Assembly: GCA_046538235.1 (NCBI GenBank)
Contig: JBKHJG010000001.1
Location: 60,581 to 124,580, forward strand
DNA: 64,000 nt
Direction: 5' to 3'
From: Dehalococcoidia bacterium
GTDB taxonomy: Bacteria; Chloroflexota; Dehalococcoidia; GIF9; AB-539-J10
Positions 9,316-31,568 of the stretch are shown here, one piece after another. Position 1 is the stretch's first letter; each line of letters begins with the position of its first letter. A program made the position numbers and the translations under genes. The notes beneath the pieces were generated by a model. That model did not search any database. It was not told where the DNA came from and was given only the letters and a program-made list of their open reading frames with translations.

Positions 9316-9363
9316 TCTGCTCCTCCTTCTATCTTCTGGCATGAGCCAGCCAATCGGTCTCCA

Positions 9364-9627
9364 TCATTCCTCAAACTGCCCACTGATGGCATCAAACCGC
9401 CGCACACTATGGATTGTCTCAAACGGCGTTTGTGTCAGGCGGAGAACGCGCCTCAGGACCTTCTCGTCCGGCGCCTCCCATTCACAGAAGTGCCTGCTCG
9501 CTACGAAATCGCAGTAACTGCATTTCCAGGAGACACCTTTAGGCATGAAGCTCGGCGCAGCCTTGGCCCGTGCCATCAACTCCTCCTCAGTGAATGGTGC
9601 CTTGTGAACAACCATGAAGCGTGCCAT
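9364..9627 (-). CDS. small DUF4242-like protein
   Basis: 87 aa beginning MARFMVVHKAP with a ...FCEWEAPD pattern as in DUF4242. Sits between the ADH and AOR genes on the same strand. Confidence 0.45.
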   Translation of the reverse strand: MARFMVVHKAPFTEEELMARAKAAPSFMPKGVSWKCSYCDFVASRHFCEWEAPDEKVLRRVLRLTQTPFETIHSVRRFDAISGQFEE

Positions 9628-9688
9628 CTTTGCCTCCTAATGATCCCTCCCGCAGTCTGTGGAAATCGCCGGGGCCGCCCCAGCAAAG

Positions 9689-10855
9689 CTAGAAATCTAT
9701 ACTCTTTCCTTCGTAGGTGTAGCTGAAGAATCTGTCTGTTTCCGCAACATCAGGTATTCTGGGGGAGACAATCAACGAGCCGTCGGCCATGAGGTTGTCT
9801 ATCAGCTTCTCCATGGCCTTGTTGAAGCCGTCCAATGGAATGCCGGTCTCTCTGATACTCAACGGTTGGTTGATAGTGTGGGCCAGTCCCCTGATAGCCT
9901 CAGCCAGCGCCGCTGCCGCCGTCTTGCCCCGGGGTATCTCCAGATTGATAGCGTACGCGATCTCTGCCCATAGTTCTTCGCGGGCCTCACCGATGAATTC
10001 GATGGTATAGGGCAGAAACAGCCCAACTGCTCTGCCGTGGGGTACATGAAATACGGCGCCGAGCGAATGCCCTGCAGCGTGGGCCATGCTTGAGAGAGCA
10101 TTGATGAAGCCGATACCTGCCATGCAGGCCGCATTATGCATCTTTTCACGGGCTTCCATGTCGCCGCCATCCCTCACCGCTCTGGGCAGGTATCGGAAAA
10201 CAAGCTGTATCGCTTTGATACAGAAACCGTCTGAGAAGTCGTTCTTCCAATCGCAGGTATATCCCTCGACTGCGTGAGTTAGCGCATCCATTCCCGTGTC
10301 TGCCGTGATGTGAGGAGGCATGGCCCGGGCCAGTTCCGGATCCACGATGGCAATATCAGGGACGATCTCACGGTTGATAAGGCTCAGCTTTCTCTGGTCG
10401 CCCGGGTCGGTAAGCACCACCGCGAAAGTTGCCTCGGCGCCCGTGCCCGAGGTTGTGGCCACGCAGACAAGCCTGCACTTGCAGCCCAGGCCCAGGTCCG
10501 AGAGAAATGGGTTTATCTCCTCCGCCCTCATGTCCGGCCTTTCATATTGTACCCTCATGGCCTTGGCTGCATCCATGACCGAACCCCCACCCACAGCAAC
10601 AACCACATCGGGCCGATACTGGTTCATCAGAGCCACACCCTTGTCTACCGTATCCAGTGAAGGGTCGGGCTCAACGGCATCAAAGACAGCGGCTTGAATT
10701 CCGGCCCGGGCCAGATGCTCCTTGACCCTGTCAACAAAGCCCAGCTTCACAATGTTTTTATCTGTAACTATGAGTGCCGACTGGCCCTTAAGTTCAGACA
10801 GATGGCTGAGCGCGTCCTCGCCGAATACCACCTGCGGAGCAACAAAATACCACAT
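9689..10855 (-). CDS. iron-containing alcohol dehydrogenase (Fe-ADH family)
   Basis: GGGSVMDAAK NAD motif and Fe-binding His motifs. 388 aa. Confidence 0.9.
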   Translation of the reverse strand: MWYFVAPQVVFGEDALSHLSELKGQSALIVTDKNIVKLGFVDRVKEHLARAGIQAAVFDAVEPDPSLDTVDKGVALMNQYRPDVVVAVGGGSVMDAAKAMRVQYERPDMRAEEINPFLSDLGLGCKCRLVCVATTSGTGAEATFAVVLTDPGDQRKLSLINREIVPDIAIVDPELARAMPPHITADTGMDALTHAVEGYTCDWKNDFSDGFCIKAIQLVFRYLPRAVRDGGDMEAREKMHNAACMAGIGFINALSSMAHAAGHSLGAVFHVPHGRAVGLFLPYTIEFIGEAREELWAEIAYAINLEIPRGKTAAAALAEAIRGLAHTINQPLSIRETGIPLDGFNKAMEKLIDNLMADGSLIVSPRIPDVAETDRFFSYTYEGKSIDF

Positions 10856-19186: not shown

Positions 19187-20128
19187 TTGATGACCCTCAT
19201 GACGTCTCTGCCCGTCCACGTACCTGTTCTGGTTGACGAAGTGATGGAGGGGCTCCGGGCTGAGCCAGGAGGGCGCTTCGTTGACTGCACCGTCGGCCCC
19301 GGGGGACACGCGGCGGCCATACTGGAAAGAATCACGCCTTCGGGAAAGCTTCTGGGCATCGATGCTGATCCTGAAGCTATCAGAAGCAGCCAGCACAGGC
19401 TCAGCAATTATGACCCGGCAGTTATTCTGGTCAACGACAGCTTTGCCAACCTTGAGGCCATTTGCGAAAGATACCATTTTCATCCAGTTGATGGTATTCT
19501 TTTCGACCTCGGTGTTTCATCTCTGCAACTGGATACAGCCGAACGAGGCTTCAGTTTCCAACTCGATGCGCCTCTGAACATGAGGTTCGATCCCGGTCAA
19601 GGGCTGACTGCATCAGACATCGTAAACAGCTTCACTGAGCAGGAATTGGCGCGGCTGATACACAATTACGGAGAAGAGCGCCACAGCCGCCGGATCGCGC
19701 GGCAGATCGTACAGAACCGGCCTATCTCTAGCACGGTGGAGCTTGCCCGCCTGATAGAACATGTCTCAGGAGGCAGGCGCTCCAGGATTCACCCTGCCAC
19801 AAGAACCTTCATGGCACTTCGCATCGCGACCAATAATGAACTACAGAATCTGGAGCTGGCTCTCAGACAAACCATCAACCTCCTTCGCCCCGGGGGAAGA
19901 CTGGCAGTTGTCAGCTATCATTCCCTGGAAGATCGCATAGTCAAGCAATTCCTGCGCAACGCAGCCAGCAATTGCCTATGCCCCCCGGGAACAATAATCT
20001 GTCGCTGTGGGCATGTGCCCACCCTCAAACTCATTTCACGGAAGGTCATTAAACCTACCTCGTTGGAGATAGAATCCAACCCACGCAGCCGTAGCGCCAA
20101 ACTAAGGATCGCTGAGCGACTCAACTAG
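19187..20128 (+). CDS. rsmH: 16S rRNA (cytosine1402-N4)-methyltransferase RsmH
   Basis: HVPVL...DCTVGPGGH SAM-binding motif and full-length RsmH similarity. Confidence 0.92.
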   Translation: MMTLMTSLPVHVPVLVDEVMEGLRAEPGGRFVDCTVGPGGHAAAILERITPSGKLLGIDADPEAIRSSQHRLSNYDPAVILVNDSFANLEAICERYHFHPVDGILFDLGVSSLQLDTAERGFSFQLDAPLNMRFDPGQGLTASDIVNSFTEQELARLIHNYGEERHSRRIARQIVQNRPISSTVELARLIEHVSGGRRSRIHPATRTFMALRIATNNELQNLELALRQTINLLRPGGRLAVVSYHSLEDRIVKQFLRNAASNCLCPPGTIICRCGHVPTLKLISRKVIKPTSLEIESNPRSRSAKLRIAERLN

Positions 20129-20152
20129 GCAGTATCTTCAGCAACAAAGGAG

Positions 20153-21376
20153 GTGAAAATGGCGAAAAAGATCATATCAGCTATTGATGTTGGCACGACC
20201 AAAGTAGCCACCATCGTGGCCAATGTCAAAGCCGAAGACGACATCGAGGTTCTAGGAGTGGGAGTCGTTCCGTCTCGCGGCCTGCACAAAGGCATAGTAG
20301 TCAATATGGATGAAGCCAGACAGTCCATTGCCGCGTCGTTGAAAGAAGCTCAAAGAATCAGTGGCATACGTATAGATTCTGCCTATGTTGGGGTTACCGG
20401 CAGGCACATAAGCAGCCTGAACAACCGGGGAGTAGTAGCTATCCCCCGGGACGATCGACTGGTGCGCACCCAGGACCTGAAACGGGTGTTATCTGTGGCT
20501 CGTAGCATAACGGTCTCTGAGGGAAAGAAGGTGTTGCACGCCATTCCGCGCTCCTATGCGCTGGACGGACAGGAGGGAGTGCAGCAGCCAGTGGGCATGC
20601 ATGGCTCGAGGTTAGACGTAGAGACTCATATCGTCACTGCTTCAGTGACCTCGATCCAGAACCTGGCCAAATGCGTTCGCAGCATCGGCGTTGACGTGGA
20701 GGACCTCATCCTGGAGCCCCTGGCCAGCGGAGAAGCAGCGCTAACTCCGGAGGAAAGAGAATCGGGCGTCATCATGGCCGACATCGGAGGGGGCACCACC
20801 GATATAGCGGTATTCAAGAACGGCAGCATTTACCACACGGCCATCCTTCCGGTGGCCGGCTACCAGGTAACGAGCGACATCTCCATAGGCCTGGGACTGC
20901 CTTTCAATATTGCCGAGAAGATGAAGAAGAGGTACGGCAACGTCGAACCGACTGCGGATATGGATCAGACTGCGCAAGTAGGCATCGAGAACGGCCATAG
21001 CGCTTCCTACAAAGACCTCTGCAGCATTATCCGGGCTCGAATGGAGGAACTGCTGCAACTCGTACTACTCGAGATGCCGACCAGCGATTATCACACGCTG
21101 GCGCCCTGTGGCTTGGTGCTTACGGGAGGCACATCCAACCTGGCCGGGCTCGACGACCTAGGACAGTCGATGCTGCACATTCCGGTGCGCAAGGGCCGGC
21201 CCATGAGTAGCGGCCTGTACGGCATCTCAGATATTCTGCACGACCCGTCTTACGCTACCACCCTGGGGCTGATCCTGTGGCAGGTGCGGGGCAAAGAGGG
21301 ATCAACTTTCAAGGAAACGAGAGCTGGCGCATGGCGCAGTCTCATGACACTCATGAGAAGGCTGTTCCGCGCCTGA
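20153..21376 (+). CDS. ftsA: cell division protein FtsA
   Basis: Actin-like ATPase motifs (IDVGTTKV; ADIGGGTTDIAVF). Immediately upstream of ftsZ. Confidence 0.92.
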   Translation: MKMAKKIISAIDVGTTKVATIVANVKAEDDIEVLGVGVVPSRGLHKGIVVNMDEARQSIAASLKEAQRISGIRIDSAYVGVTGRHISSLNNRGVVAIPRDDRLVRTQDLKRVLSVARSITVSEGKKVLHAIPRSYALDGQEGVQQPVGMHGSRLDVETHIVTASVTSIQNLAKCVRSIGVDVEDLILEPLASGEAALTPEERESGVIMADIGGGTTDIAVFKNGSIYHTAILPVAGYQVTSDISIGLGLPFNIAEKMKKRYGNVEPTADMDQTAQVGIENGHSASYKDLCSIIRARMEELLQLVLLEMPTSDYHTLAPCGLVLTGGTSNLAGLDDLGQSMLHIPVRKGRPMSSGLYGISDILHDPSYATTLGLILWQVRGKEGSTFKETRAGAWRSLMTLMRRLFRA

Positions 21377-21395
21377 TTTGTGAAAGGAGGTTAGA

Positions 21396-22526
<1,131 letters not shown>

Positions 22527-22540
22527 ACCTAAACCTCATT

Positions 22541-22576
22541 AGGGTAAAGGGGTAGCGGTAGCTACCCCTTTACCCT
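22541..22576 (+). terminator. 16-bp perfect hairpin (agggtaaaggggtagc-ggta-gctacccctttaccct) 15 nt after the ftsZ stop
   Basis: Perfect inverted repeat with no U-tract. Likely a transcript-end or RNA-stability element for the division operon. Confidence 0.5.
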
Positions 22577-22712: not shown

Positions 22713-22733
22713 CTCAGAAGATACCTTTAAATC

Positions 22734-22747
22734 AGTCCCGTGAGGCT
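22734..22747 (+). promoter_or_regulatory. PyrR binding loop (AGUCCCGUGAGGCU) in the pyr leader
   Basis: Matches the PyrR RNA-recognition consensus ARUCCNGNGAGGYU at every position. Confidence 0.6.
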
Positions 22748-22789
22748 GGTAAGGGGCGTTATGCTACAACACAGCGTAATAGGAACACC

Positions 22790-22830
22790 GACTCGAACCT
22801 CTTGCCAGTTTGCAGGCAGGAGGTTTTTTA
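22790..22830 (+). terminator. pyr attenuator: hairpin (cctcttgcc...ggcaggagg) followed by TTTTTT, immediately 5' of the pyrR GTG start and sequestering the RBS
   Basis: Stem plus U-tract between the PyrR box and the start codon, the classic PyrR-dependent attenuation arrangement. Confidence 0.45.
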
Positions 22831-23409
22831 GTGCCTGAAAAGGTTCTCCTCACTCCAAGGGAGATAGAGCGGGCCCTGGCCCGTATTGCTCACGAGATCG
22901 TAGAAAGGAACAAGGGCGCGGAAGGGGTTGTGCTGGTAGGGATGCGAACCCGCGGAGTACCTCTAGCCTGGCGGGTAGCCGGGATAATTGAGAGCTTTGA
23001 AAGAACGCGTGTCCCGGTGGGTACTCTGGATATCGGTCTGTATCGCGATGACATCTCCCCTACGGAGTCAGAACCGGCCAGCCAGAGCTACACTGAGATC
23101 CCCACGGCTATCACCGATAGGCCGGTAGTCCTGGTGGACGATGTTCTCTATACGGGAAGGAGCATCCGGGCTGCTATGGACGCCCTTATGGACCTGGGGC
23201 GTCCCAGCTCTGTTCAGTTGGCTGTACTGATTGATCGCGGTCATCGCGAGTTACCCATCCGCGCCGATTACGTTGGCAAGAATATACCCAGCGCCAAGGG
23301 CGAGCAGATACAGGTCCAGCTGGCGGAGACTGATGGCGTAGACCGGGTGATAATCGCCAGTCCGGCCGGGGGAAACTACGCGCTGGAAACTAAGGAGGGC
23401 GTCTCGTGA
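22831..23409 (+). CDS. pyrR: bifunctional pyrimidine operon regulator / uracil phosphoribosyltransferase PyrR
   Basis: PRTase motif ([20 protein letters not shown]) and typical PyrR N-terminus. GTG start at 22831; the ORF track extends it to 22810. Confidence 0.9.
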
Positions 23410-24806
23410 ATCTGGCAAATAGGAATCTGGTTTCAATTGACGATCTATCCAACGGCGAAATCGAAGCGCTCTTTTCCGTGGCAGATGACATGGCAGACTC
23501 TATTTATGAGCAGTCCAGTCTATGCCGGGGCAAGATCATGGCCAGCCTGTTCTTTGAACCCAGTACCAGGACCAGGCTATCCTTCGAAGCTGCGATGCTC
23601 AGGCTTGGGGGCCGCGTCATAAGCGCTGTGGACGTTGGAGCTACTTCTCTAGCCAAGGGCGAAAGCGTTGCCGATATGGCGAAGGTGGTTGGCAGCTATG
23701 CGGATATAATAGTTATCAGGCACCCTTGGGAAGGAGCGGCCAGGGTGGTGGCCGATTATGCCGGCGTCCCCGTGATAAACGCCGGTGACGGTAGCCACGA
23801 GCATCCCACCCAGACCCTATGCGACCTCTACACCATAAAAAAAGAGAGACAGACGGTCAGGGGACTAAAGATCGCGCTGTGGGGGGACTTGAGACACGGG
23901 CGGACAGTACATTCACTGATCTATGCCCTGGCCCGTTTCGGTGCTACCATCCTCTTCTGTCCGGGACCTAGCCTGGAGATGCCGGACCACGTGCTGAGGA
24001 GACTTACTACCGAGTACAAGGGCGAACTCAAGATGTGCCGAGACCTGAGCGAGGAGCTTGCAAAGGGCCCTTTCCCGGTCGATGCCGTATACATAACCCC
24101 CAGCAGTCCACACCAGCTGGCCATGCTGCCCGACATAAGCGTCGGAGTGGAGTTGAAGGCGGGGGTCGACGCACTCTATGTCACACGACTCCAAAAGGAA
24201 AGAGAGGCCACTGCTAGAGATGGACAGGATGGGAAGAAAGGCTACCCGGTGGTGGATAGGAAGCTGCTTAAAGGCAAGGGATTCCAGAAGACACTTGTCA
24301 TGCATCCACTGCCCCGCGTTGACGAACTGGCCTACGACGTGGACGCCGACCCCAGGAGCATGTACTTCAAGCAGGCAGCCTATGGAGTGCCCGTCAGAAT
24401 GGCGCTCATAGCCCTCTTGTCGGGAGGCCGGGAGGTCACAATTCGTGAGGAGAATGGTTGGTCCAACGGCAAGCCCGATTATCCAATCTATGAGCGAGAT
24501 TCAGGGGTCAGATGCCCCAATGCAAACTGCGTTTCAAATCAGGAGACAGAGGTAAGGTACATACGCCCCAAGTTCGAAATAGTAAGTCGCATGCCCTTGA
24601 CGCTGCGGTGCATCTATTGTGAGCATGAGGTCCATCCTCCTTATGTCGCCAGTTCAGAGTGGCACCAGGGGAAGCTGGAGAACAAGAAATACCACAGCGC
24701 CAGTAGCCGGTTTGCCCGCAAGATAAGCCCGGAGAACCTCATCATTTTCGCCTCCGAGGAGGACGCCCGGGCACAGCAGTTCAAGCCCAGCACTTATATC
24801 AGATAG
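23406..24806 (+). CDS. pyrB: aspartate carbamoyltransferase catalytic chain fused to a C-terminal PyrI-type zinc domain
   Basis: ATCase motifs (STRTR; HPTQ; HPLP) within ~330 aa. These are followed, after a linker, by [10 protein letters not shown]...LRCIYCEHE, which matches the zinc domain of the regulatory subunit PyrI, and then a ~60-aa tail. 466 aa total. Confidence 0.85.
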
Positions 24807-26173
24807 TGAAGAAGAGGAAGGATATCTTTCTGCTCGTCCACGGCGGCCGCATAATTGATCCCGGCCAGGGCATGGATGAGGCCGGTGACGTGCTCATTGC
24901 CGGGGGCAGGATTGTGCAGGCAGGGGGCAGTATCGTTGCCAGCCAGGCAGAGGAACTCGATGCCAGGGGACTGATTGTCTGCCCCGGCTTTGTAGACCTC
25001 CACTGTCATCTGCGGGAGCCCGGCCTTGAGGATAAGGAGACAGTCTCTACAGGGACGAAAGCGGCCGCCAGAGGCGGATTCACCACGGTCTGCTGCATGG
25101 CAAATACGGATCCCCCGCTGGATACTCCGGAAGCCGTGGCCTGGCTGAAGCAGCAGGCGACCAAAGATGGCCTCATTGGCGTTCTCCCCATAGGCTGCAT
25201 TAGCAGAGGCAGAAGAGGCGTTAACTTGACCAACATGGCTGAGCTGGCGGAAGCGGGGGTGGTCGCTTTCAGCGATGACGGCGACCCCGTAGCAAGCTCG
25301 TACCTGATGCGTCGCGCCATGGAGTGTAGCCGTGACCTGGGCCTGCCGATCATTGACCATTGTGAGGACAAGGCACTAAGCACCGGTGGAATCATGAACG
25401 AAGGGCAACTGTCTGCTGAACTGGGACTGCCTGGTATTCCTGCTGCCGCCGAAGAGGTTATGATAGCCCGCGACCTGATCCTGGCCAAGTTGACCAGTTC
25501 CAGAGTTCACATTGCTCATGTCAGCAGCAAGGGCTCCGTGGAGCTTATTCGCCGTGCCAAAGAAGACGGGATTCCGGTAACCGCCGAGGTCACGCCCCAT
25601 CACCTTACGCTAACCGAGAAGAGGGTCGCTGGAGGGCCACCCAACAGGCCCTTCGATAGCAATGCCAAGGTGAACCCGCCGCTGCGCACCGAAGCAGACG
25701 TCGAGGCCTTAATCAAGGGCCTTAAGGACGGAGTAATCGATGCCATCGCCACCGACCATGCCCCGCATACCGCGGCAGACAAGGACCGTGAGCCGGAGCT
25801 GGCGGCTTCTGGCATCAGCGGCTTTGATACAGCTTTCGGCTGTCTTATGGGCCCGGTGCACCGTGGAGAGATAAGCCTCGCCCAGCTCATCTCTAAGTTG
25901 ACCTGTGAGCCGGCGAGAGTAATCGGTAGGGGCGGTGAACTGGGCACGCTGAAGGTCGGCGCCCCGGCTAATGTCGTGGTGGTTGACCCCGACCGCGAAT
26001 GGACAGTTGATAGCCGCAGTTTCGCCTCCAAAGGCAAGAACACTCCTTACCATGGCTGCCGGTTCAAGGGCAAGGTAATGGCCACAATAGCAAACGGCAG
26101 GCTAGTTCACGTAGACGACTCGCTGTCCTGTTGTCCCGTCTCTCATGACCGTACAGCGCGCGGGCGAGGGTGA
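24806..26173 (+). CDS. pyrC: dihydroorotase
   Basis: Metal-binding HCH motif (VDLHCHLREPG) and amidohydrolase fold. The GTG start overlaps the pyrB stop. Confidence 0.9.
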   Translation: MKKRKDIFLLVHGGRIIDPGQGMDEAGDVLIAGGRIVQAGGSIVASQAEELDARGLIVCPGFVDLHCHLREPGLEDKETVSTGTKAAARGGFTTVCCMANTDPPLDTPEAVAWLKQQATKDGLIGVLPIGCISRGRRGVNLTNMAELAEAGVVAFSDDGDPVASSYLMRRAMECSRDLGLPIIDHCEDKALSTGGIMNEGQLSAELGLPGIPAAAEEVMIARDLILAKLTSSRVHIAHVSSKGSVELIRRAKEDGIPVTAEVTPHHLTLTEKRVAGGPPNRPFDSNAKVNPPLRTEADVEALIKGLKDGVIDAIATDHAPHTAADKDREPELAASGISGFDTAFGCLMGPVHRGEISLAQLISKLTCEPARVIGRGGELGTLKVGAPANVVVVDPDREWTVDSRSFASKGKNTPYHGCRFKGKVMATIANGRLVHVDDSLSCCPVSHDRTARGRG

Positions 26174-26186
26174 TGTAAGGCGCCCT

Positions 26187-27317
26187 ATGGCTAGAAAAGC
26201 GATCTTAGTCCTCGAAGATGGCTCGGTCTACGAAGGGTGGTCCTTCGGTGCCACGACCACCGCCTACGGCGAGGTGGTGTTCGACACTGGCATGACGGGT
26301 TACCAGGAAATGCTCACCGACCCATCCTTCGCCGGCCAGATTCTCGTCCCTACCTATCCGCTAATCGGCAACTACGGCGTCAACGAGTCCGATTCTCAGT
26401 CCGCTCAGATTCAGGTCAAGGCGCTGGCTGTCCGGGAGCATTGCTCCCAGCCCAGCCACATTCAATCCGCTCAGTCGCTACCCGAGTTCCTTTTGGCACA
26501 TGACATCCCTGGCATCAGCGGCATAGATACGCGGGCTGTGGTCCGCCGCTTGAGGTGGGAGGGAGCCATGATGGGACTGGTCACCTCAGAAATGACCGTT
26601 GAGCAGGCATTAGCAGAGGTAAGAACCTTACCTGGATATGATATTACCGATTTGGTTCGTCAGGTGAGCACCGACAAGCCATATGAGTGGCAACTCAGTA
26701 AGGGCGATGGCCAACCAGCGTCATTGCGAGCCCCGATGGAATTGGGACAAAGCAGTCTCAGCATTATAGTCATTGATCTAGGCTTGAAATACGACATGCT
26801 CCGCATCCTGACCCGCCTTGGCTGCCGGGCAGTTGCCGTCCCCTGCACTGCCTCCGCAGAAGAGATCCTGGCGCTGGGTCCCCAGGGCATCATCCTCTCT
26901 CCCGGCCCCGGCAACCCCGACCTCCTTGCTGACATCACCACAACAGTCACCAGGCTCATCGGTAGGAAGCCAGTAATGGGTATCTGCCTCGGACACCAGC
27001 TTATAGGCAAAGCTCTGGGGGCCAGGACCTTCAAGCTCAAGTTTGGGCATCGCGGCGGCAATCACCCGGTGCGTGACCTGGCTACCGGCAGGGTCTACAT
27101 CACATCCCAGAACCACGGTTACGCCATAGACGCCGACACTGTAGGCGGCGGGCTGGAGGTGAGCCACACCAACTTGAACGACGGCACGGTTGAGGGCTTG
27201 CGGCACAGGGACCTGCCTATTCTGGCCATCCAATACCACTGCGAGGCCTCGCCCGGCCCGCTGGATAGTATATATGTATTTGACGCATTCCTGGAGATGG
27301 CGCGAAAGGTGCAGTAA
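26187..27317 (+). CDS. carA: carbamoyl-phosphate synthase small (glutaminase) subunit
   Basis: CarA N-terminal domain plus a class-I glutamine amidotransferase catalytic triad region (GICLGHQL). Start at the internal Met (MARKAILV). Confidence 0.92.
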   Translation: MARKAILVLEDGSVYEGWSFGATTTAYGEVVFDTGMTGYQEMLTDPSFAGQILVPTYPLIGNYGVNESDSQSAQIQVKALAVREHCSQPSHIQSAQSLPEFLLAHDIPGISGIDTRAVVRRLRWEGAMMGLVTSEMTVEQALAEVRTLPGYDITDLVRQVSTDKPYEWQLSKGDGQPASLRAPMELGQSSLSIIVIDLGLKYDMLRILTRLGCRAVAVPCTASAEEILALGPQGIILSPGPGNPDLLADITTTVTRLIGRKPVMGICLGHQLIGKALGARTFKLKFGHRGGNHPVRDLATGRVYITSQNHGYAIDADTVGGGLEVSHTNLNDGTVEGLRHRDLPILAIQYHCEASPGPLDSIYVFDAFLEMARKVQ

Positions 27318-27329
27318 GACGGGCAAGTC

Positions 27330-30300
27330 ATGTCACAAGTCTCCAAGGTCTTAGTCATCGGCTCGGGGCCGATAGTCATCGGACAGGCGGCGGAGTTCGA
27401 CTATTCCGGCACTCAGGCCTGCCGCGCTCTACGTGAGGAGGGCGTGAACACGGTCCTAGTGAACTCCAACCCGGCAACCATCATGACCGACGAGGGCATC
27501 GCCGATATCGTGTATATCGAGCCGCTGACCGTGGAGGTCCTGGCCCGCATAATCGACAGGGAACGGCCCGATGGCCTATTGGCCACCCTAGGGGGACAAA
27601 CAGGGCTTAACCTGGCGGTGGAGCTGGCCGATGGCGGGATGCTCGACACCTACGATGTGCAGTCCCTGGGCACGCCCATAGACACAATCAAGAAGGCTGA
27701 GGAGAGGTCCCTGTTCAAGCAACTCCTTGTTGATATTGGCGAGCCTGTGCCGGCCAGCGCCACCGTGAAATCGGTTGAGGAGGCCGCGAAACTGGCAGAC
27801 TCCATTGGTCTGCCCCTTATTGTCCGTCCGTCTTACACCCTGGGTGGCAGCGGCGGCGGCATCGCCCGCACTGTGAAAGAACTTGAGGAGATTGTGGGCA
27901 GCGGCCTGGAATCCAGCATGACCCGTGAAGTCCTGGTCGAGCAGTGTATTTCAGGGTGGAAAGAGATCGAATACGAAGTCATGCGGGATGGTGCCGACAA
28001 CTGCATCGCCGTCTGCTGTATGGAGAACATCGATCCCATGGGAATACATACCGGGGACAGCATAGTGGTAGCTCCCAGCCAGACGCTCACGGACAGGGAA
28101 TACCAGATGCTCAGGTCGGCCAGCCTGAAGATCATACGAGCACTGAAAATTGAGGGCGGCTGCAACATACAGTTCGCCCTGCCGCCGAGCCCGGTAGTGG
28201 CCGAGCAATGGACCGCCTGCCGAAAGCAGATTTCGGACCGCGCCTATTACGTAATCGAGGTCAACCCGCGCGTCAGCCGCAGTTCGGCCCTGGCCAGCAA
28301 GGCCGCCGGCTATCCCATTGCCCGAGTAGCTGCCAAGATAGCCATAGGCAGGAGGCTTGATGAAATATCGAACAAGGTCACAGGCAGGACGTCGGCATGT
28401 TTCGAACCAGCCCTGGACTACTGCGTAGTCAAAATTCCCAGGTGGCCCTTTGACAAGTTCGCCCTGGGCGACCGAGGAATTGGCAGTCAGATGAAGGCCA
28501 CCGGTGAGGTGATGGCCATCGACAGGTGTTTTGAGGCTGCCCTGCAGAAGGCAGTGCGGTCGCTGGAATCCGGCAAACACACCCTGCTCTGGGAGGATCC
28601 CTGCTGGAGCAAAGGGGAAGGGCTCAGCCTCTACCCCCTCCATCCTAACGACCTAAGGCTATGGGCGATCATGGCCGCGCTGCGGAGGCAGACTACCTGT
28701 GAAGAGCTATCGCGGACCACCGGAATAGACCCCTGGTTCATCCACAAGCTCAAGAACATCGTGGACATGGAGCGGAGGCTGCTTGCCGAATCCCTGGACC
28801 CCGGGCTCCTGCTGGAAGCAAAGAGACTGGGCTTTTCAGATGCGCAGGTGGGCACCCTGGCCGACCGACTGCCCGACCAGATAAGGCAACTCCGTCATGA
28901 GTGGGGCCTTCGGCCGGCGTACAAAATGGTGGATACCTCCGCTTCAGAATATCAGGCCGAGAGCCCCTATTTCTACAGTACCTACGAGAAAGAGAATGAA
29001 GCTGAGCCGTTGAATGATGGCAAAGCTGTGGTCATCGGCAGCGGACCTATACGCATCGGACAGGGAATTGAGTTTGACTATTGCTGCGTCCATGCAGCCT
29101 GGGCCCTCAGGGAGGCAGGTTTGAGAAGCATCCTGGTCAACTCCAATCCCGAGACGGTTTCCACCGACTTCGACACGAGCGACCGTCTCTACTTCGAACC
29201 ACTGGATGAGGAGCACGTCCGGGATATTCTGGAGAATGAGCGCAACGACGGTCCGCCGCCATCCATCGTTCAGTTCGGCGGGCAAACACCGATTAACCTG
29301 GTCGGGCTCTTAGCACGCAACAACCTGCCGATACTTGGCTCAAGTGCTGAGACTACGGATATAGCCGAAGATCGCCGCCGTTTCGAGGATTTCCTGGACA
29401 GATTGGGCATCCCCCAGCCTCCCGGCGCCGGGGTGACTTCGCTGGAGGAGGCGCTGGACATAGCCGGGGTCCTAGGCTTCCCCGTACTGGTGCGCCCCAG
29501 CTATGTACTGGGCGGCAGAGCCATGGAGATTGTACACAACGAAGGCGAGTTAATCCGTTACCTGACGCTGGCTCTGGAGATGGACAAGCAGCATCCTGTG
29601 CTCATTGACAAGTACCTGCAAGGGAAAGAAATCGAGGTCGACGCCATTTGCGACGGAAAAGATGTGCTCATCCCGGGCGTGATGGAACACATTGAACGGG
29701 CCGGTGTCCATAGCGGCGATTCTATAGCCGTGTACCCCGGCGTGGATCTGGCCAGCACTGAAGTAGATACTATAGCAGGTTATGTCACCAGGATCGGACT
29801 GGCACTCCAGGTCAGCGGCCTGCTCAACATACAGATGGTGATCATACGCGAGGATGATAGCTCCTCCGTATATGTGCTGGAGGTGAATCCTCGAGCCAGT
29901 CGGACGGTGCCCTTCATATCTAAGGTGACTGGTATACCCATGATCAAGATTGCCACCAAGGTAATGGCCGGAATCGGCCTGGGCGAACAAGGCTATGCCG
30001 GCGGCCTATGGAGAGGACAACAAAAGGTCGTTGGCGTGAAAGCTCCTGTCTTCTCCATGTCAAAACTGAGCGGTGTGGACGGCTACCTGGGTCCCGAGAT
30101 GAAGTCCACGGGCGAGGTGATGGGCATCGATTATGGCTTCGAGGCGGCTATGATCAAAGCGCTCCTGGCTGCCGGACTGATGCTCCCTCAGGGGGGCAGG
30201 CTGCTGCTCAGTATCGCCGATAGGGACAAACCCGAATCGCTGCCTCTGATAAGGCAATTGCACGCCCTTCACCACGAGCTATATGCCACTGAAGGCACTG

Positions 30301-30635
30301 CAATCATGATTGAGTCTATGGGGCTGCCGGTAAAGATGGTGACCAAGAAGCTGAATGAGGGGCATCCTAATGTCGTTGATGTCATACGAGACCACTCTGT
30401 GAACGGGGTAATCAACACCATCACCGGTGGACGTGTCCAGCTGCAGGACGGGTTCGCTATCAGACGTGCCGCCGTAGAAAGAAGGATACCCTGCTTCACG
30501 TCGCTGGATACCGCGCGCGTAGCAATAGGAGCGCTGGCAAACGGCAGTCGGCTCTTCAACGTCCAACCACTCAGTGATTATTTTAAAGGCAAAGATGCCA
30601 ATGCAAAAGACATGGCTACGGAGCAAAGGCTGTAG
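27330..30635 (+). CDS. carB: carbamoyl-phosphate synthase large subunit
   Basis: 1101 aa with duplicated ATP-grasp halves, an oligomerisation domain and an MGS-like domain. Confidence 0.97.
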
Positions 30636-30698: not shown

Positions 30699-31568
30699 GT
30701 GTCCCGGTCCTGTGTAGGTCCTAGTATGGAACAGTCGTTGTGCACCATCACCCGTAATCTGGAGGTCATGCCCGGCACACACATCATGTGGGTTGAAGCA
30801 CCGTACATAGCCTGTTCGGCCCGGCCGGGGCAGTTCATCACAGCACGTTGCGCAGGCTTCACGTTGCGTCGCCCCCTCGGCGTTCACCAGGTTTCACGGC
30901 CGAAGATTGCCCTTCTTTTCAGAATAGCAGGCAAAGGCACCCTCTGGCTATCCCGGCGAGGAGCCGGTGAGGAAATAGATGTTCTTGGCCCTCTGGGCAA
31001 CGGATTCACCATTGCCCCCGCCGATCCGGGCCGCTCCAGACGGTTGCTGCTGGTGGCCGGAGGAATCGGCATTGCCCCGCTCATTTGCCTGATGCAGCAT
31101 GCTTCATCACAGCACGAGATAACGCTGCTTCAGGGGGCGAGCACTGCTGCTCAGCTCTATCCCTGGGCTAACCCGGGCACAGGCCCTTCCCATGCTGCCG
31201 GGAAGCAGACCGGACTTGCCGCTCTGCCGGCAGGAGTTCAACTCATTAGTGTCACAGAGGACGGCAGCTCGGGCCATAGAGGCCTGGTCACTCATATAGT
31301 GCCCGAATTCCTCGACTGGGCTGACCAGGTATTTGCCTGCGGGCCGTTACAGATGTATGAAGCCATGGCAGGGCTGAGCCATCACTGCAGCTCCGCCCAG
31401 CAGGCCAAGCTCAAGGGCTGTCAGGTCTCATTGGAGGTGAGGATGGGGTGCGGTTTCGGAGCCTGCTACGGCTGCACCATAAATACCAGGAAAGGCCTGA
31501 AGACGGTATGTCGTGATGGCCCTATATTTGAGCTGGACGATATCATATGGCAGGAGGTAAGGCTATGA
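30699..31568 (+). CDS. pyrK: dihydroorotate dehydrogenase electron-transfer subunit (FAD/NAD-binding, 2Fe-2S)
   Basis: Ferredoxin-reductase-like fold and a C-terminal cluster motif (CGFGACYGC...C). Confidence 0.8.
   Translation: MSRSCVGPSMEQSLCTITRNLEVMPGTHIMWVEAPYIACSARPGQFITARCAGFTLRRPLGVHQVSRPKIALLFRIAGKGTLWLSRRGAGEEIDVLGPLGNGFTIAPADPGRSRRLLLVAGGIGIAPLICLMQHASSQHEITLLQGASTAAQLYPWANPGTGPSHAAGKQTGLAALPAGVQLISVTEDGSSGHRGLVTHIVPEFLDWADQVFACGPLQMYEAMAGLSHHCSSAQQAKLKGCQVSLEVRMGCGFGACYGCTINTRKGLKTVCRDGPIFELDDIIWQEVRL

What the first reader, a model, noticed from the sequence alone, without database searches (positions are those of the whole stretch)
23406..24806. Aspartate carbamoyltransferase catalytic chain fused to the zinc domain of its regulatory subunit
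The pyrB ORF continues ~135 aa beyond the normal ATCase C-terminus. This extension contains a clear PyrI-type zinc domain ([41 protein letters not shown]). It lacks the PyrI allosteric (nucleotide-binding) domain, and no separate pyrI follows; pyrC starts at the stop. In E. coli the PyrI zinc domain is the contact surface with PyrB. A covalent PyrB-Zn-domain fusion suggests a structural or assembly role without CTP/ATP allostery. This is consistent with regulation of the operon instead by PyrR attenuation.
Basis: partly seen in the sequence, partly recalled or inferred. Interest (0 to 1): 0.5.

Follow-up and report, generated by a model that had tools for sequence, protein, structure and literature searches.

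The report
ATCase fused to PyrI zinc domain
This aspartate carbamoyltransferase carries, in one polypeptide, the zinc domain of its usual regulatory partner plus a small cysteine-less "sunset"/Ada-like end domain but no nucleotide-sensing domain, and the design is conserved across many uncultured Chloroflexota but apparently never studied.

Summary
ORF 23406-24806 (+) encodes a 466-aa protein. It has an intact ATCase catalytic chain (aa 1-340), a ~20-aa linker and a PyrI-type zinc domain (aa ~361-410, Pfam PyrI_C 43-46 bits, four invariant Cys). It has no PyrI allosteric domain. pyrC starts at the stop codon, and a PyrR attenuator lies upstream.

It is not a frameshift artefact. The same uninterrupted reading frame occurs in 43 Dehalococcoidia species genomes and in more than 200 protein clusters. 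Relatives down to about 45% identity come from Anaerolineales and SAR202.

The last ~55 aa form a third domain, homologous to the "sunset" domain and the Ada N-terminal zinc domain but without their Cys ligands. A ~48-aa insertion in the aspartate domain always accompanies the tail.

Both tail domains are under purifying selection.

Most likely mechanism (inferred): the tethered zinc domain docks on the catalytic chain as in class-B holoenzymes and acts as a built-in clamp without nucleotide allostery, while control is exerted by PyrR. The role of the sunset-like domain is unknown; it may bridge trimers or contact dihydroorotase.

A catalytically dead sister family that keeps the tail and is coupled to an intact DHOase gene hints at the second option. 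I found no description in the literature I could search.

The parts
22720..22832 (+). PyrR-binding attenuator: binding loop plus a terminator hairpin and U-run, upstream of pyrR
   Evidence: Rfam RF00515 scores 54.6 bits against a gathering score of 54, with a full-length match. The sequence is shown.
22810..23409 (+). pyrR. The mechanical ORF starts at TTG 22810, but the real start is probably GTG 22831, after the terminator.
   Evidence: Pfam gives Pribosyltran at 3e-21 and a UPRTase hit. The SD-like GGAGG at 22819-22823 lies in the 3' arm of the terminator. The stop overlaps the pyrB start.
23406..24806 (+). The whole fused gene: PyrB catalytic chain, linker, PyrI zinc domain and sunset-like domain (466 aa)
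   Evidence: It is conserved in frame in 43 species.
23421..23840 (+). Carbamoyl-phosphate-binding domain (aa 6-145) with the STRTR, RHP-EGAAR and HPTQ motifs
   Evidence: Pfam OTCace_N at 4.8e-48. The motifs are tabulated.
23841..24425 (+). Aspartate-binding domain and C-terminal helix (aa 146-340) with the GRTVHS, TRLQKER and HPLPR motifs
   Evidence: Pfam OTCace. It aligns to 2rgw and 1ml4 up to aa 338-340.
24018..24161 (+). Family-specific insertion in the aspartate domain (aa ~205-252), containing '[13 protein letters not shown]', a near copy of the following strand '[13 protein letters not shown]'
   Evidence: The alignment to PDB ATCases has a gap here: query 201-250 corresponds to chain 200-215. 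The insertion is present in 9 of the 10 diverse full-length members aligned and degenerate in P0145. pN/pS is 0.34.
24426..24485 (+). Linker (aa 341-360), poorly conserved
   Evidence: Mean identity is 0.47 and pN/pS is 0.49 among 43 species. pLDDT is low.
24486..24635 (+). PyrI-type zinc domain (aa ~361-410), with Cys370, Cys375, Cys402 and Cys405
24636..24803 (+). Sunset/Ada-N-like C-terminal domain without Cys ligands (aa ~411-466)
24806..26173 (+). pyrC (long, type-I-like dihydroorotase). Its start codon overlaps the stop of the fused gene.
   Evidence: Pfam gives Amidohydro_1 and DHOase. It lies immediately downstream in every locus that extends that far.
26145..30635 (+). carA and carB (carbamoyl-phosphate synthetase), the rest of the operon core
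   Evidence: The ORFs are listed. The order pyrR-pyrB*-pyrC-carA-carB is conserved in the loci. pyrK follows at 30699-31568.

Best explanation
The gene encodes an active aspartate carbamoyltransferase of the archaeal/class-B lineage that has its regulatory partner's zinc domain built in.

Proposed mechanism:
- The catalytic chains form the usual trimer.
- Each chain's tethered Cys4 zinc domain docks, through the ~20-residue linker, on the carbamoyl-phosphate domain surface that PyrI occupies in class-B holoenzymes.
- There it acts as a permanent clamp that stabilises the trimer and tunes its kinetics.
- The nucleotide-binding, dimerising allosteric domain is absent, so the enzyme is not regulated by CTP, UTP or ATP in the E. 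coli manner.
- Pathway control is instead transcriptional, through PyrR and its attenuator.
- The zinc domain is followed by a small sunset/Ada-N-like domain that has lost its metal ligands. It is predicted to form a compact unit with the zinc domain and most probably serves as a protein-protein contact module.

Shown: the domain composition, intact catalytic motifs, the conserved Cys4 site, family-wide conservation, purifying selection and the PyrR element.

Inferred: docking of the zinc domain, absence of nucleotide allostery, and any role of the third domain.
For: - Domain calls: OTCace_N, OTCace and PyrI_C are above their cut-offs, and no PyrI allosteric domain is found.
- Lineage: the catalytic part is closest to PyrI-partnered ATCases. 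M. jannaschii 2rgw scores 5e-79, P. abyssi 1ml4 7e-77, and Moritella and E. coli 1e-68 to 1e-63. The PyrI-less B. subtilis type scores 1e-38 and Aquifex 6e-25.
- Catalysis: all catalytic motifs are intact (STRTR, KGE, RHP, HPTQ, GRTVHS, TRxQxER, HPLPR), and the 'HPxEGAAR' segment is kept.
- Zinc site: the four Cys are invariant in 51 tails that share as little as 21-30% identity. The Asn of C-x-N-x-x-C and the Tyr of C-x-Y-C are at least 90% conserved.
- Fold: the tail model (pLDDT 78.9, pTM 0.68) matches PyrI zinc domains and the Ada N-domain.
- Selection: pN/pS is 0.23 (Zn) and 0.21 (sunset-like), against 0.13-0.19 for the catalytic domains and 0.49 for the linker.
- Conservation: the frame is continuous in 43 species and the operon order is conserved.
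- Regulation: a PyrR gene and an RF00515 attenuator are present.
- From memory, not checked here: an isolated ~70-aa zinc fragment of E. coli PyrI binds catalytic trimers, changes their kinetics and raises their thermal stability (Markby, Zhou & Schachman, PNAS 1991; Peterson et al., Protein Sci 1994).
- Precedent: a PyrB C-terminus fused to PyrI still gives a working enzyme in Thermotoga maritima (Chen et al. 1998, cited as ref. 6 of PMC4581275).
Against: - No structural evidence of docking was obtained. The full-length AlphaFold model was poor (mean pLDDT 51), and no multimer prediction or coordinates were available.
- Absence of a free PyrI was shown only for the 64-kb window and ~10-kb loci, not for whole genomes.
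- The explanation gives no specific job to the well-conserved third domain or to the co-occurring insertion in the aspartate domain.
- Retention of the tail in a catalytically dead sister family suggests the tail does more than stabilise an enzyme.
Confidence: 0.55

Rival explanations
1. The tail, especially the sunset-like domain and perhaps the insertion, is a docking module for dihydroorotase. The enzyme would then form an ATCase-DHOase complex like the class-A dodecamers of Aquifex or Pseudomonas, with the zinc plus sunset unit as the connector.
For: - pyrC start overlaps the stop of the fused gene, which suggests translational coupling.
- pyrC is immediately downstream in all 43 loci that extend that far, and in an Anaerolineales-type relative.
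- PyrC is of the long type-I kind (455 aa).
- A catalytically dead sister family has lost STRTR, HPTQ, TRxQxER and HPLPR but keeps the Cys4 domain and the C-terminal domain. Its gene overlaps the start of an intact-looking DHOase, away from other pyr genes (L044, L045). This fits a scaffold or activator role for the PyrB-like protein towards DHOase.
- From memory: Aquifex DHOase is active only in complex with ATCase.
Against: - pyrB-pyrC adjacency is common in Bacillus-type pyr operons and is not specific evidence.
- Known ATCase-DHOase complexes need no zinc or sunset domain.
- There is no interaction data or model.
- P0171 lacks the sunset-like domain altogether.
Confidence: 0.2
2. The sunset-like domain replaces the PyrI allosteric domain functionally. 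It would dimerise to bridge two trimers (c6), or bind a small-molecule effector, giving a new kind of allosteric ATCase.
For: - It sits on the zinc domain as the allosteric domain does in PyrI, although on the opposite (C-terminal) side.
- It is as constrained as the zinc domain, with pN/pS 0.21.
- A clade-specific loop 'SS[ED]WH[EQ]GKLENKKYH' is almost invariant in the Dehalococcoidia clade, with W419 and H420 invariant in 41 sequences.
Against: - Across the wider family only fold-core positions are conserved (F448, A454, G458), and the W-H loop is missing in many members.
- No nucleotide-binding motif is present.
- One family member lacks the domain.
- No oligomer model is available.
Confidence: 0.15
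3. The sunset/Ada-like domain binds nucleic acid, giving the enzyme a moonlighting role on RNA or DNA.
For: - Its relatives are found on DNA- or RNA-associated proteins: the Ada N-domain, micrococcal-nuclease fusions (P0154, P0157, P0200, P0232), and NCBIfam 'sunset domain variants' of ribosomal proteins L17, L4, L20 and S2.
- The domain is rich in Lys and Arg (sequence).
Against: - Three of the four metal ligands are lost: S434, S462 and I465 replace the Cys residues.
- PyrR already provides RNA-level control.
- The function of sunset domains is itself undocumented.
Confidence: 0.07
4. The extension is an assembly or frameshift artefact, or a decaying remnant of a former pyrBI fusion with no function.
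For: None beyond the unusual length. The linker is poorly conserved.
Against: - The same frame occurs in 43 independently assembled species genomes and in more than 200 clusters from several sources.
- The Cys4 site is invariant down to 21-30% tail identity.
- Both tail domains are under purifying selection.
Confidence: 0.02

Closest known systems
Class-B ATCase holoenzyme (E. coli, Moritella and archaeal PyrB6-PyrI6)
   Same: The catalytic chain belongs to this lineage (best PDB hits). The regulatory-chain zinc domain has the C-x4-C...C-x2-C site, and both sequence and predicted fold match PyrI chains.
   Different: The zinc domain is covalently fused to the catalytic chain. The nucleotide-binding, dimerising allosteric domain is absent. 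There is an extra C-terminal sunset-like domain and an insertion in the aspartate domain. No pyrI gene follows pyrB.
Fused PyrB-PyrI of Thermotoga maritima type (NCBIfam NF009916 / PRK13376, 'bifunctional catalytic/regulatory subunit')
   Same: The C-terminus of PyrB continues into regulatory-chain sequence in one polypeptide. The Thermotoga enzyme is cited as ref. 6 in PMC4581275.
   Different: The Thermotoga type keeps the whole PyrI, including the allosteric domain, and is allosteric. Here only the zinc domain is kept. The window protein scores 104.7 bits against a cut-off of 800 for NF009916, and the match covers only the N-terminal catalytic part.
Engineered complex of the E. coli catalytic trimer with the isolated ~70-aa zinc fragment of PyrI (Markby, Zhou & Schachman 1991; Peterson et al. 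1994; recalled from memory, papers not held)
   Same: Catalytic chains plus the zinc domain without the allosteric domain. This is the laboratory analogue of what nature has fused here.
   Different: The laboratory complex is non-covalent and artificial. It has no sunset-like domain and no insertion. Its reported properties (altered kinetics, higher thermal stability) have not been tested for this protein.
Class-A ATCase-DHOase complexes (Aquifex aeolicus; Pseudomonas with an inactive DHOase-like subunit)
   Same: pyrB and pyrC are adjacent and overlapping. The sister family pairs a dead PyrB-like protein with an intact DHOase, a mirror image of Pseudomonas.
   Different: The catalytic chain here is not of the class-A lineage: Aquifex 3d6n scores only 6e-25. 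Class-A enzymes have no zinc domain. A complex is not shown here.
Sunset domain (NCBIfam NF051437) and Ada N-terminal zinc-binding domain (Pfam PF02805; PDB 1adn, 1u8b)
   Different: Three of the four metal ligands seen in the Cys-bearing sunset repeats (H, C, C, C) and in Ada (C4) are replaced. The window sequence is below the curated cut-offs of both models. The biochemical role of sunset domains is not documented in the searchable literature.

Membership tests
Aspartate carbamoyltransferase catalytic chain (TIGR00670 / Pfam OTCace_N + OTCace) | Score above the curated cut-offs of the family models | tested here: met
   TIGR00670 scores 314.1 bits against 236.95, NF002032 284.4 against 263, OTCace_N 163.5 against 29.9 and OTCace 77.7 against 29.4.
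Aspartate carbamoyltransferase catalytic chain (TIGR00670 / Pfam OTCace_N + OTCace) | Catalytic and substrate-binding motifs STRTR, KGE, RHP, HPTQ, GRTVHS, TRxQxER and HPLPR | tested here: met
   All are present in the window protein and in 10 diverse active-type relatives. Enzyme activity itself is not testable here.
PyrI zinc domain (Pfam PF02748 PyrI_C) | HMM score above the gathering threshold | tested here: met
   43.1 bits in the whole protein and 46.1 bits in the tail alone, against 23.4.
PyrI zinc domain (Pfam PF02748 PyrI_C) | Four Cys ligands, C-x4-C ... C-x2-C | tested here: met
   C370, C375, C402 and C405 are invariant in 43 species and in 51 diverse tails. Zinc occupancy is not testable here.
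PyrI zinc domain (Pfam PF02748 PyrI_C) | Fold of the regulatory-chain zinc domain | tested here: met
PyrI zinc domain (Pfam PF02748 PyrI_C) | Binds the catalytic chain at the C-R interface | not testable with these tools
   The full-length model was unusable (pLDDT 51), and there is no multimer modelling. The only indirect support is the class-B-type catalytic chain and the conserved Asn and Tyr next to the Cys knuckles.
Complete ATCase regulatory chain PyrI (TIGR00240; Pfam PyrI + PyrI_C) | N-terminal nucleotide-binding allosteric domain | tested here: not met
   There is no PyrI N-domain hit at E<=1. TIGR00240 scores 33-36 bits against a cut-off of 148.55 and matches only model positions 102-143. 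Only ~20-27 aa separate the PyrB end from the zinc domain.
Bifunctional PyrB/PyrI fusion (NCBIfam NF009916, Thermotoga type) | Score above the curated cut-off; full PyrI moiety present | tested here: not met
   104.7 bits against a cut-off of 800, and the match is restricted to aa 3-202.
Sunset domain (NCBIfam NF051437) | HMM score above the curated cut-off | tested here: inconclusive
   The window C-terminus scores 12-16 bits against 27. Nevertheless 28 of 30 family C-termini match at E<=1 (best 2.3e-7), and profile-profile comparison with sunset repeats gives 99.1% probability, E 1.4e-18.
Sunset domain (NCBIfam NF051437) | H/C...C-x2-C metal ligands, as seen in the Cys-bearing repeats used as reference | tested here: not met
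   H430 is kept, while S434, S462 and I465 replace the three Cys. No Cys is conserved in the 30-member alignment. I could not see whether the NCBIfam model itself expects these Cys.
Ada N-terminal zinc-binding domain (Pfam PF02805) | HMM score above the threshold and four Cys ligands | tested here: not met
PyrR-attenuated pyr operon (Rfam RF00515 + PyrR) | PyrR-binding RNA element at or above the gathering score upstream of the pyr genes, with a pyrR gene present | tested here: met
   RF00515 at 22720-22832 scores 54.6 bits against 54, which is marginal but full length with a terminator and a U-run. PyrR matches Pribosyltran and UPRTase.

The most novel reading that the evidence does not exclude
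These proteins define a fourth architectural class of prokaryotic ATCase. In it a covalently attached zinc-domain-plus-sunset module, together with the co-evolved insertion in the aspartate domain, replaces the PyrI dimer as the element that organises higher-order assembly, either trimer-trimer or ATCase-DHOase. In the sister lineage the scaffold has outlived catalysis and survives as a pseudo-ATCase partner of dihydroorotase.
Probability: 0.25. Interest if true: 0.7.

Novelty: new variant of a known kind. Interest (0 to 1): 0.5.

Why it matters
ATCase is the textbook allosteric enzyme. Its known prokaryotic forms are bare trimers, PyrI-bridged dodecamers (with separate or fully fused chains) and DHOase-bridged dodecamers.

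A widespread natural form that keeps only the contact (zinc) domain of the regulatory chain, drops the nucleotide sensor and adds an unrelated small domain is a natural experiment. It tests what the zinc domain does on its own (stability, kinetic tuning, assembly), and it shows how allosteric regulation can be lost in favour of transcriptional control by PyrR.

It also gives a concrete, abundant case for studying the uncharacterised sunset domain. It points to a pseudo-ATCase/DHOase pair that mirrors the Pseudomonas ATCase/pseudo-DHOase pair.

On the practical side, current annotation calls these proteins plain 'aspartate carbamoyltransferase (catalytic subunit)' or 'hypothetical protein'.

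Tried and rejected
- **Frameshift or stop artefact.** Rejected by in-frame conservation in 43 species and more than 200 clusters.
- **Stand-alone mini-PyrI genes (zinc plus sunset, ~110-180 aa) in the representative search.** Rejected. These sequences begin inside the last PyrB helix ([10 protein letters not shown]...) and are N-terminally cut fragments of fused genes.
- **Full-length AlphaFold model, to see whether the zinc domain docks.** Unusable. Mean pLDDT is 51 and the catalytic part is below 50, because the available alignment was shallow at 63-95% identity.
- **A second homologue search with a diverse profile, to gain alignment depth.** It returned mostly the same abundant clade.
- **Foldseek against afdb50.** The library was not available.
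- **Literature.** Searches for 'zinc domain' with 'fused', for 'sunset domain', for pyrB/pyrI/Chloroflexi and for the zinc-binding polypeptide found no description of this architecture. One search (PyrI_C/PF02748) was swamped by 'Pyricularia'. PMC287071 is not held.
- **Separate pyrI.** This does not cover whole genomes.
- **Internal start that would make a separate zinc protein.** There is no Met or conserved start in the linker.
- **Taxonomic names.** Look-ups for the closest free PyrI and for the dead family gave almost nothing.
Full report
**1. The observation**

The ORF 23406-24806 (+) exists as described. It is 466 aa long and starts at a GTG that overlaps the stop of the upstream pyrR ORF. 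Its TAG stop (24804-24806) shares its last base with the GTG start of the next gene at 24806.

Pfam places OTCace_N on aa 6-145 (163.5 bits), OTCace on the second half (77.7 bits, split in two stretches) and PyrI_C on aa 368-409. PyrI_C scores 43.1 bits in the whole protein and 46.1 bits in the tail alone, against a gathering score of 23.4. No PyrI allosteric-domain family appears even at E<=1.

NCBIfam agrees. The pyrB equivalog TIGR00670 scores 314 bits against a cut-off of 237. The complete regulatory chain TIGR00240 reaches only 33-36 bits against 148.55 and matches only model positions 102-143. The model for full PyrB/PyrI fusions (NF009916) reaches 104.7 bits against a cut-off of 800.

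Against solved structures, the tail matches PyrI chains only over their zinc domain, with 2yww at E 2.4e-6. The catalytic part aligns to archaeal ATCases up to aa 338-340. The extension is thus 126 aa rather than ~135.

**2. Not an artefact**

A scan of one genome per species with peptides from the tail found 43 loci. All are Dehalococcoidia, Dehalococcoidales or Chloroflexota MAGs.

In 42 of them a single in-frame tblastn segment covers aa 1 to ~465 of the window protein at 62-82% identity, and the ORFs are 463-480 aa. The 43rd, L026, is cut by the contig end.

Two protein searches list more than 200 clusters of 465-475 aa from JGI, ENA, NCBI and Logan, all with the three Pfam domains. Where named, they are called 'aspartate carbamoyltransferase (catalytic subunit)'.

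**3.

The 55 aa after the C-x2-C motif are strongly conserved: 'Y[VI]ASS[ED]WH[EQ][12 protein letters not shown]...RKIKPENLIIF.SE.EA.A.GFKPS.Y'.

- An exhaustive search of 1.84 billion representatives with the tail (aa 345-466) gave 120 hits. The full-length ones are 420-492-aa PyrB fusions in which the zinc domain and this C-terminal segment occur together.
- The short hits begin inside the last PyrB helix and are truncated fragments, not separate genes.
- The same search also hit proteins with tandem repeats of a small Cys-containing module, several fused to micrococcal nuclease (P0150, P0154, P0157, P0200, P0232).
- Profile-profile comparison of 30 fused-family C-termini with nine such repeats gives 99.1% probability, E 1.4e-18.
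- NCBIfam calls this module the 'sunset domain'. 28 of the 30 C-termini match NF051437 at E<=1 (best 2.3e-7), although the window's own copy scores only 16.3 bits against a cut-off of 27.
- NCBIfam also has 'sunset domain variant' models for ribosomal proteins L17, L4, L20 and S2 and for ArfC, so this is a recurrent C-terminal add-on.
- The same profile hits the N-terminal zinc domain of Ada in the PDB (1adn, 1eyf, 1wpk, 1u8b and 1zgw at E 7e-4 to 2e-3). Pfam Ada_Zn_binding is weakly hit by 23 of 30 members.
- The reference repeats have an invariant H...C...C-x2-C pattern. The window protein keeps only the His (H430) and has S434, S462 and I465 at the Cys positions. No Cys is conserved across the fused family.
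- I found no paper on the sunset domain.

**4. Structure prediction**

The full-length model was poor (mean pLDDT 51), because the alignment that could be supplied was shallow.

The tail is therefore a PyrI zinc domain followed by a metal-ligand-less Ada-N/sunset fold.

**5. A co-occurring insertion**

Relative to solved ATCases, aa ~201-250 correspond to only ~15 residues. The extra segment contains '[13 protein letters not shown]', a near copy of the following active-site strand '[13 protein letters not shown]'.

Of the ten diverse full-length members (45-63% identity), nine share the motif 'DAxYVTPxxPHQ ... DAxYVTRxQKER' together with the tail. In P0145 the motif is degenerate. Its role is unexplained. 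It may be part of the surface that receives the tail.

**6. Constraint**

Among the 43 species, pN/pS is as follows:

| Segment | pN/pS |
|---|---|
| CP domain | 0.13 |
| Aspartate domain | 0.17-0.19 |
| Insertion | 0.34 |
| Linker | 0.49 |
| Zinc domain | 0.23 |
| Sunset-like domain | 0.21 |

Synonymous sites are near saturation (pS ~0.65), so only the ranking is meaningful.

The four Cys are invariant in 51 tails whose identity to the window falls to 21-30%. The Asn in C-x-N-x-x-C, the Tyr in C-x-Y-C, and F448, A454 and G458 are at least 90% conserved or invariant. A decaying remnant is excluded.

**7. Context and regulation**

- The order pyrR-pyrB*-pyrC-carA-carB is conserved in every locus that extends far enough, and also in a 62%-identical Anaerolineales-type relative. 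pyrK follows carB.
- Rfam finds a full-length PyrR-binding element at 22720-22832 (54.6 bits against a gathering score of 54). Its terminator hairpin and U-run end just before a GTG at 22831, which is the more likely pyrR start. The SD-like GGAGG lies in the 3' arm of the terminator.
- No PyrI allosteric domain is encoded in the window or in the 43 loci. This says nothing about the rest of the genomes.

**8. Spread**

Named members of the wider family come from Dehalococcoidia, the SAR202 cluster, Anaerolineales and unclassified Chloroflexota. One member, P0171 (425 aa), has the insertion and the zinc domain but ends right after C-x2-C, without the sunset-like domain.

**9. A dead sister family**

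Four representatives (P0190, P0237, P0181, P0208) have lost STRTR, HPTQ, TRxQxER and HPLPR. They keep the Cys4 motif and the C-terminal domain.

A search with P0190 found 28 further clusters of 301-453 aa. Their precomputed Pfam domains are OTCace_N, with PyrI_C on record for about half of them (one has PyrI_C alone), and none has OTCace. One is named as a Planctomycetota MAG.

On two long contigs the gene overlaps the start of a dihydroorotase gene by 4 nt. That DHOase keeps the H-x-H, Asp, His, His and Asp metal-site residues. The pair lies away from other pyr genes (L044, L045).

This is the mirror image of the Pseudomonas pairing of an active ATCase with an inactive DHOase-like subunit. 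It suggests that the PyrB-like scaffold with its tail has a role towards DHOase that is independent of catalysis.

**10. Mechanism**

Shown:
- The catalytic chain belongs to the PyrI-partnered lineage. The best PDB hits are M. jannaschii, P. abyssi, Moritella and E. coli, far ahead of the B. subtilis and Aquifex types.
- All catalytic motifs are intact.
- A conserved Cys4 PyrI-type domain is tethered by a variable ~20-aa linker, with no allosteric domain.
- PyrR control is present.

Inferred:
- The zinc domain docks on the catalytic chain as in class-B holoenzymes and acts as a built-in clamp.
- Nucleotide allostery is absent.

The inference rests partly on precedents I recall but could not read here. 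An isolated zinc fragment of E. coli PyrI binds catalytic trimers, alters their kinetics and raises their thermal stability (Markby et al. 1991; Peterson et al. 1994). It also rests on the Thermotoga fused PyrBI enzyme (ref. 6 of PMC4581275).

The third domain has no assigned function. The candidates are a contact with DHOase, bridging of two trimers or effector binding, and nucleic-acid binding. None could be tested with the available tools.

**11. Novelty and score**

The review of the transcarbamylase family lists only separate or fully fused regulatory chains (PMC4581275). My searches found no description of a PyrB fused to the zinc domain alone, nor of a sunset domain on ATCase.

The architecture is visible in precomputed Pfam annotations, but it is annotated as a plain catalytic subunit. 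I rate it a new variant of a known kind, of moderate interest (0.5). It would surprise an ATCase specialist and is directly testable, but its components are known domains and the functional consequences are still inferred.

Noticed in passing
window 24018-24161 (aa ~205-252 of the fused protein): There is a ~48-aa insertion in the aspartate-binding domain, absent from solved ATCases. It contains '[13 protein letters not shown]', a near duplicate of the next strand '[13 protein letters not shown]'. It accompanies the zinc tail in 9 of the 10 diverse members aligned and is degenerate in P0145. Its function is unknown.
   Followed up: partly
L044 8001-9326 with 9323-10654; L045 8001-9356 with 9353-10690; proteins P0190, P0237, P0181, P0208, P0311-P0337: This is a catalytically dead PyrB-like family. 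STRTR, HPTQ, TRxQxER and HPLPR are lost, while the Cys4 zinc domain and the C-terminal domain are kept. Its gene overlaps the start of an intact-looking dihydroorotase gene, away from other pyr genes. One member is named as Planctomycetota. It may be a pseudo-ATCase partner of DHOase.
   Followed up: partly
window 22810-22835: The mechanical pyrR ORF starts at TTG 22810, inside the terminator hairpin of the PyrR attenuator. GTG 22831 is the more likely start, preceded by GGAGG (22819-22823) in the 3' arm of the hairpin. The same hairpin could then block both transcription and ribosome binding.
   Followed up: partly
window 22541-22576: A perfect 16-bp hairpin (AGGGTAAAGGGGTAGC-GGTA-GCTACCCCTTTACCCT) lies 15 nt after the ftsZ stop and has no U-run. 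It showed up as a spurious mir-641 hit. It may be a terminator or an RNA-stability element.
   Followed up: no
protein P0171 (425 aa, metagenome): This family member has the aspartate-domain insertion and the zinc domain but ends right after the C-x2-C motif. It shows that the sunset-like domain is dispensable in at least one lineage.
   Followed up: no
protein P0339 (648 aa, metagenome): This protein carries Pribosyltran + OTCace_N + OTCace domains and looks like a PyrR-PyrB fusion.
   Followed up: no
NCBIfam NF051437, NF051448-51, NF051433; proteins P0150, P0154, P0157, P0200, P0220, P0232: The 'sunset domain' recurs as a C-terminal add-on on ribosomal proteins L17, L4, L20 and S2, on ArfC, on micrococcal nucleases and on membrane-anchored proteins, sometimes in tandem. 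It is a distant relative of the Ada N-terminal zinc domain. No paper on it was found.
   Followed up: partly
window 26145-26173: The pyrC ORF and the carA ORF as listed overlap by 29 nt. The carA start is probably the later Met (MARKAILVLEDG..., about 26187).
   Followed up: no
window 19187-22526: The division and cell-wall genes rsmH-ftsA-ftsZ lie directly upstream of the pyr operon. This linkage is kept in the closest ~15 species loci.
   Followed up: no
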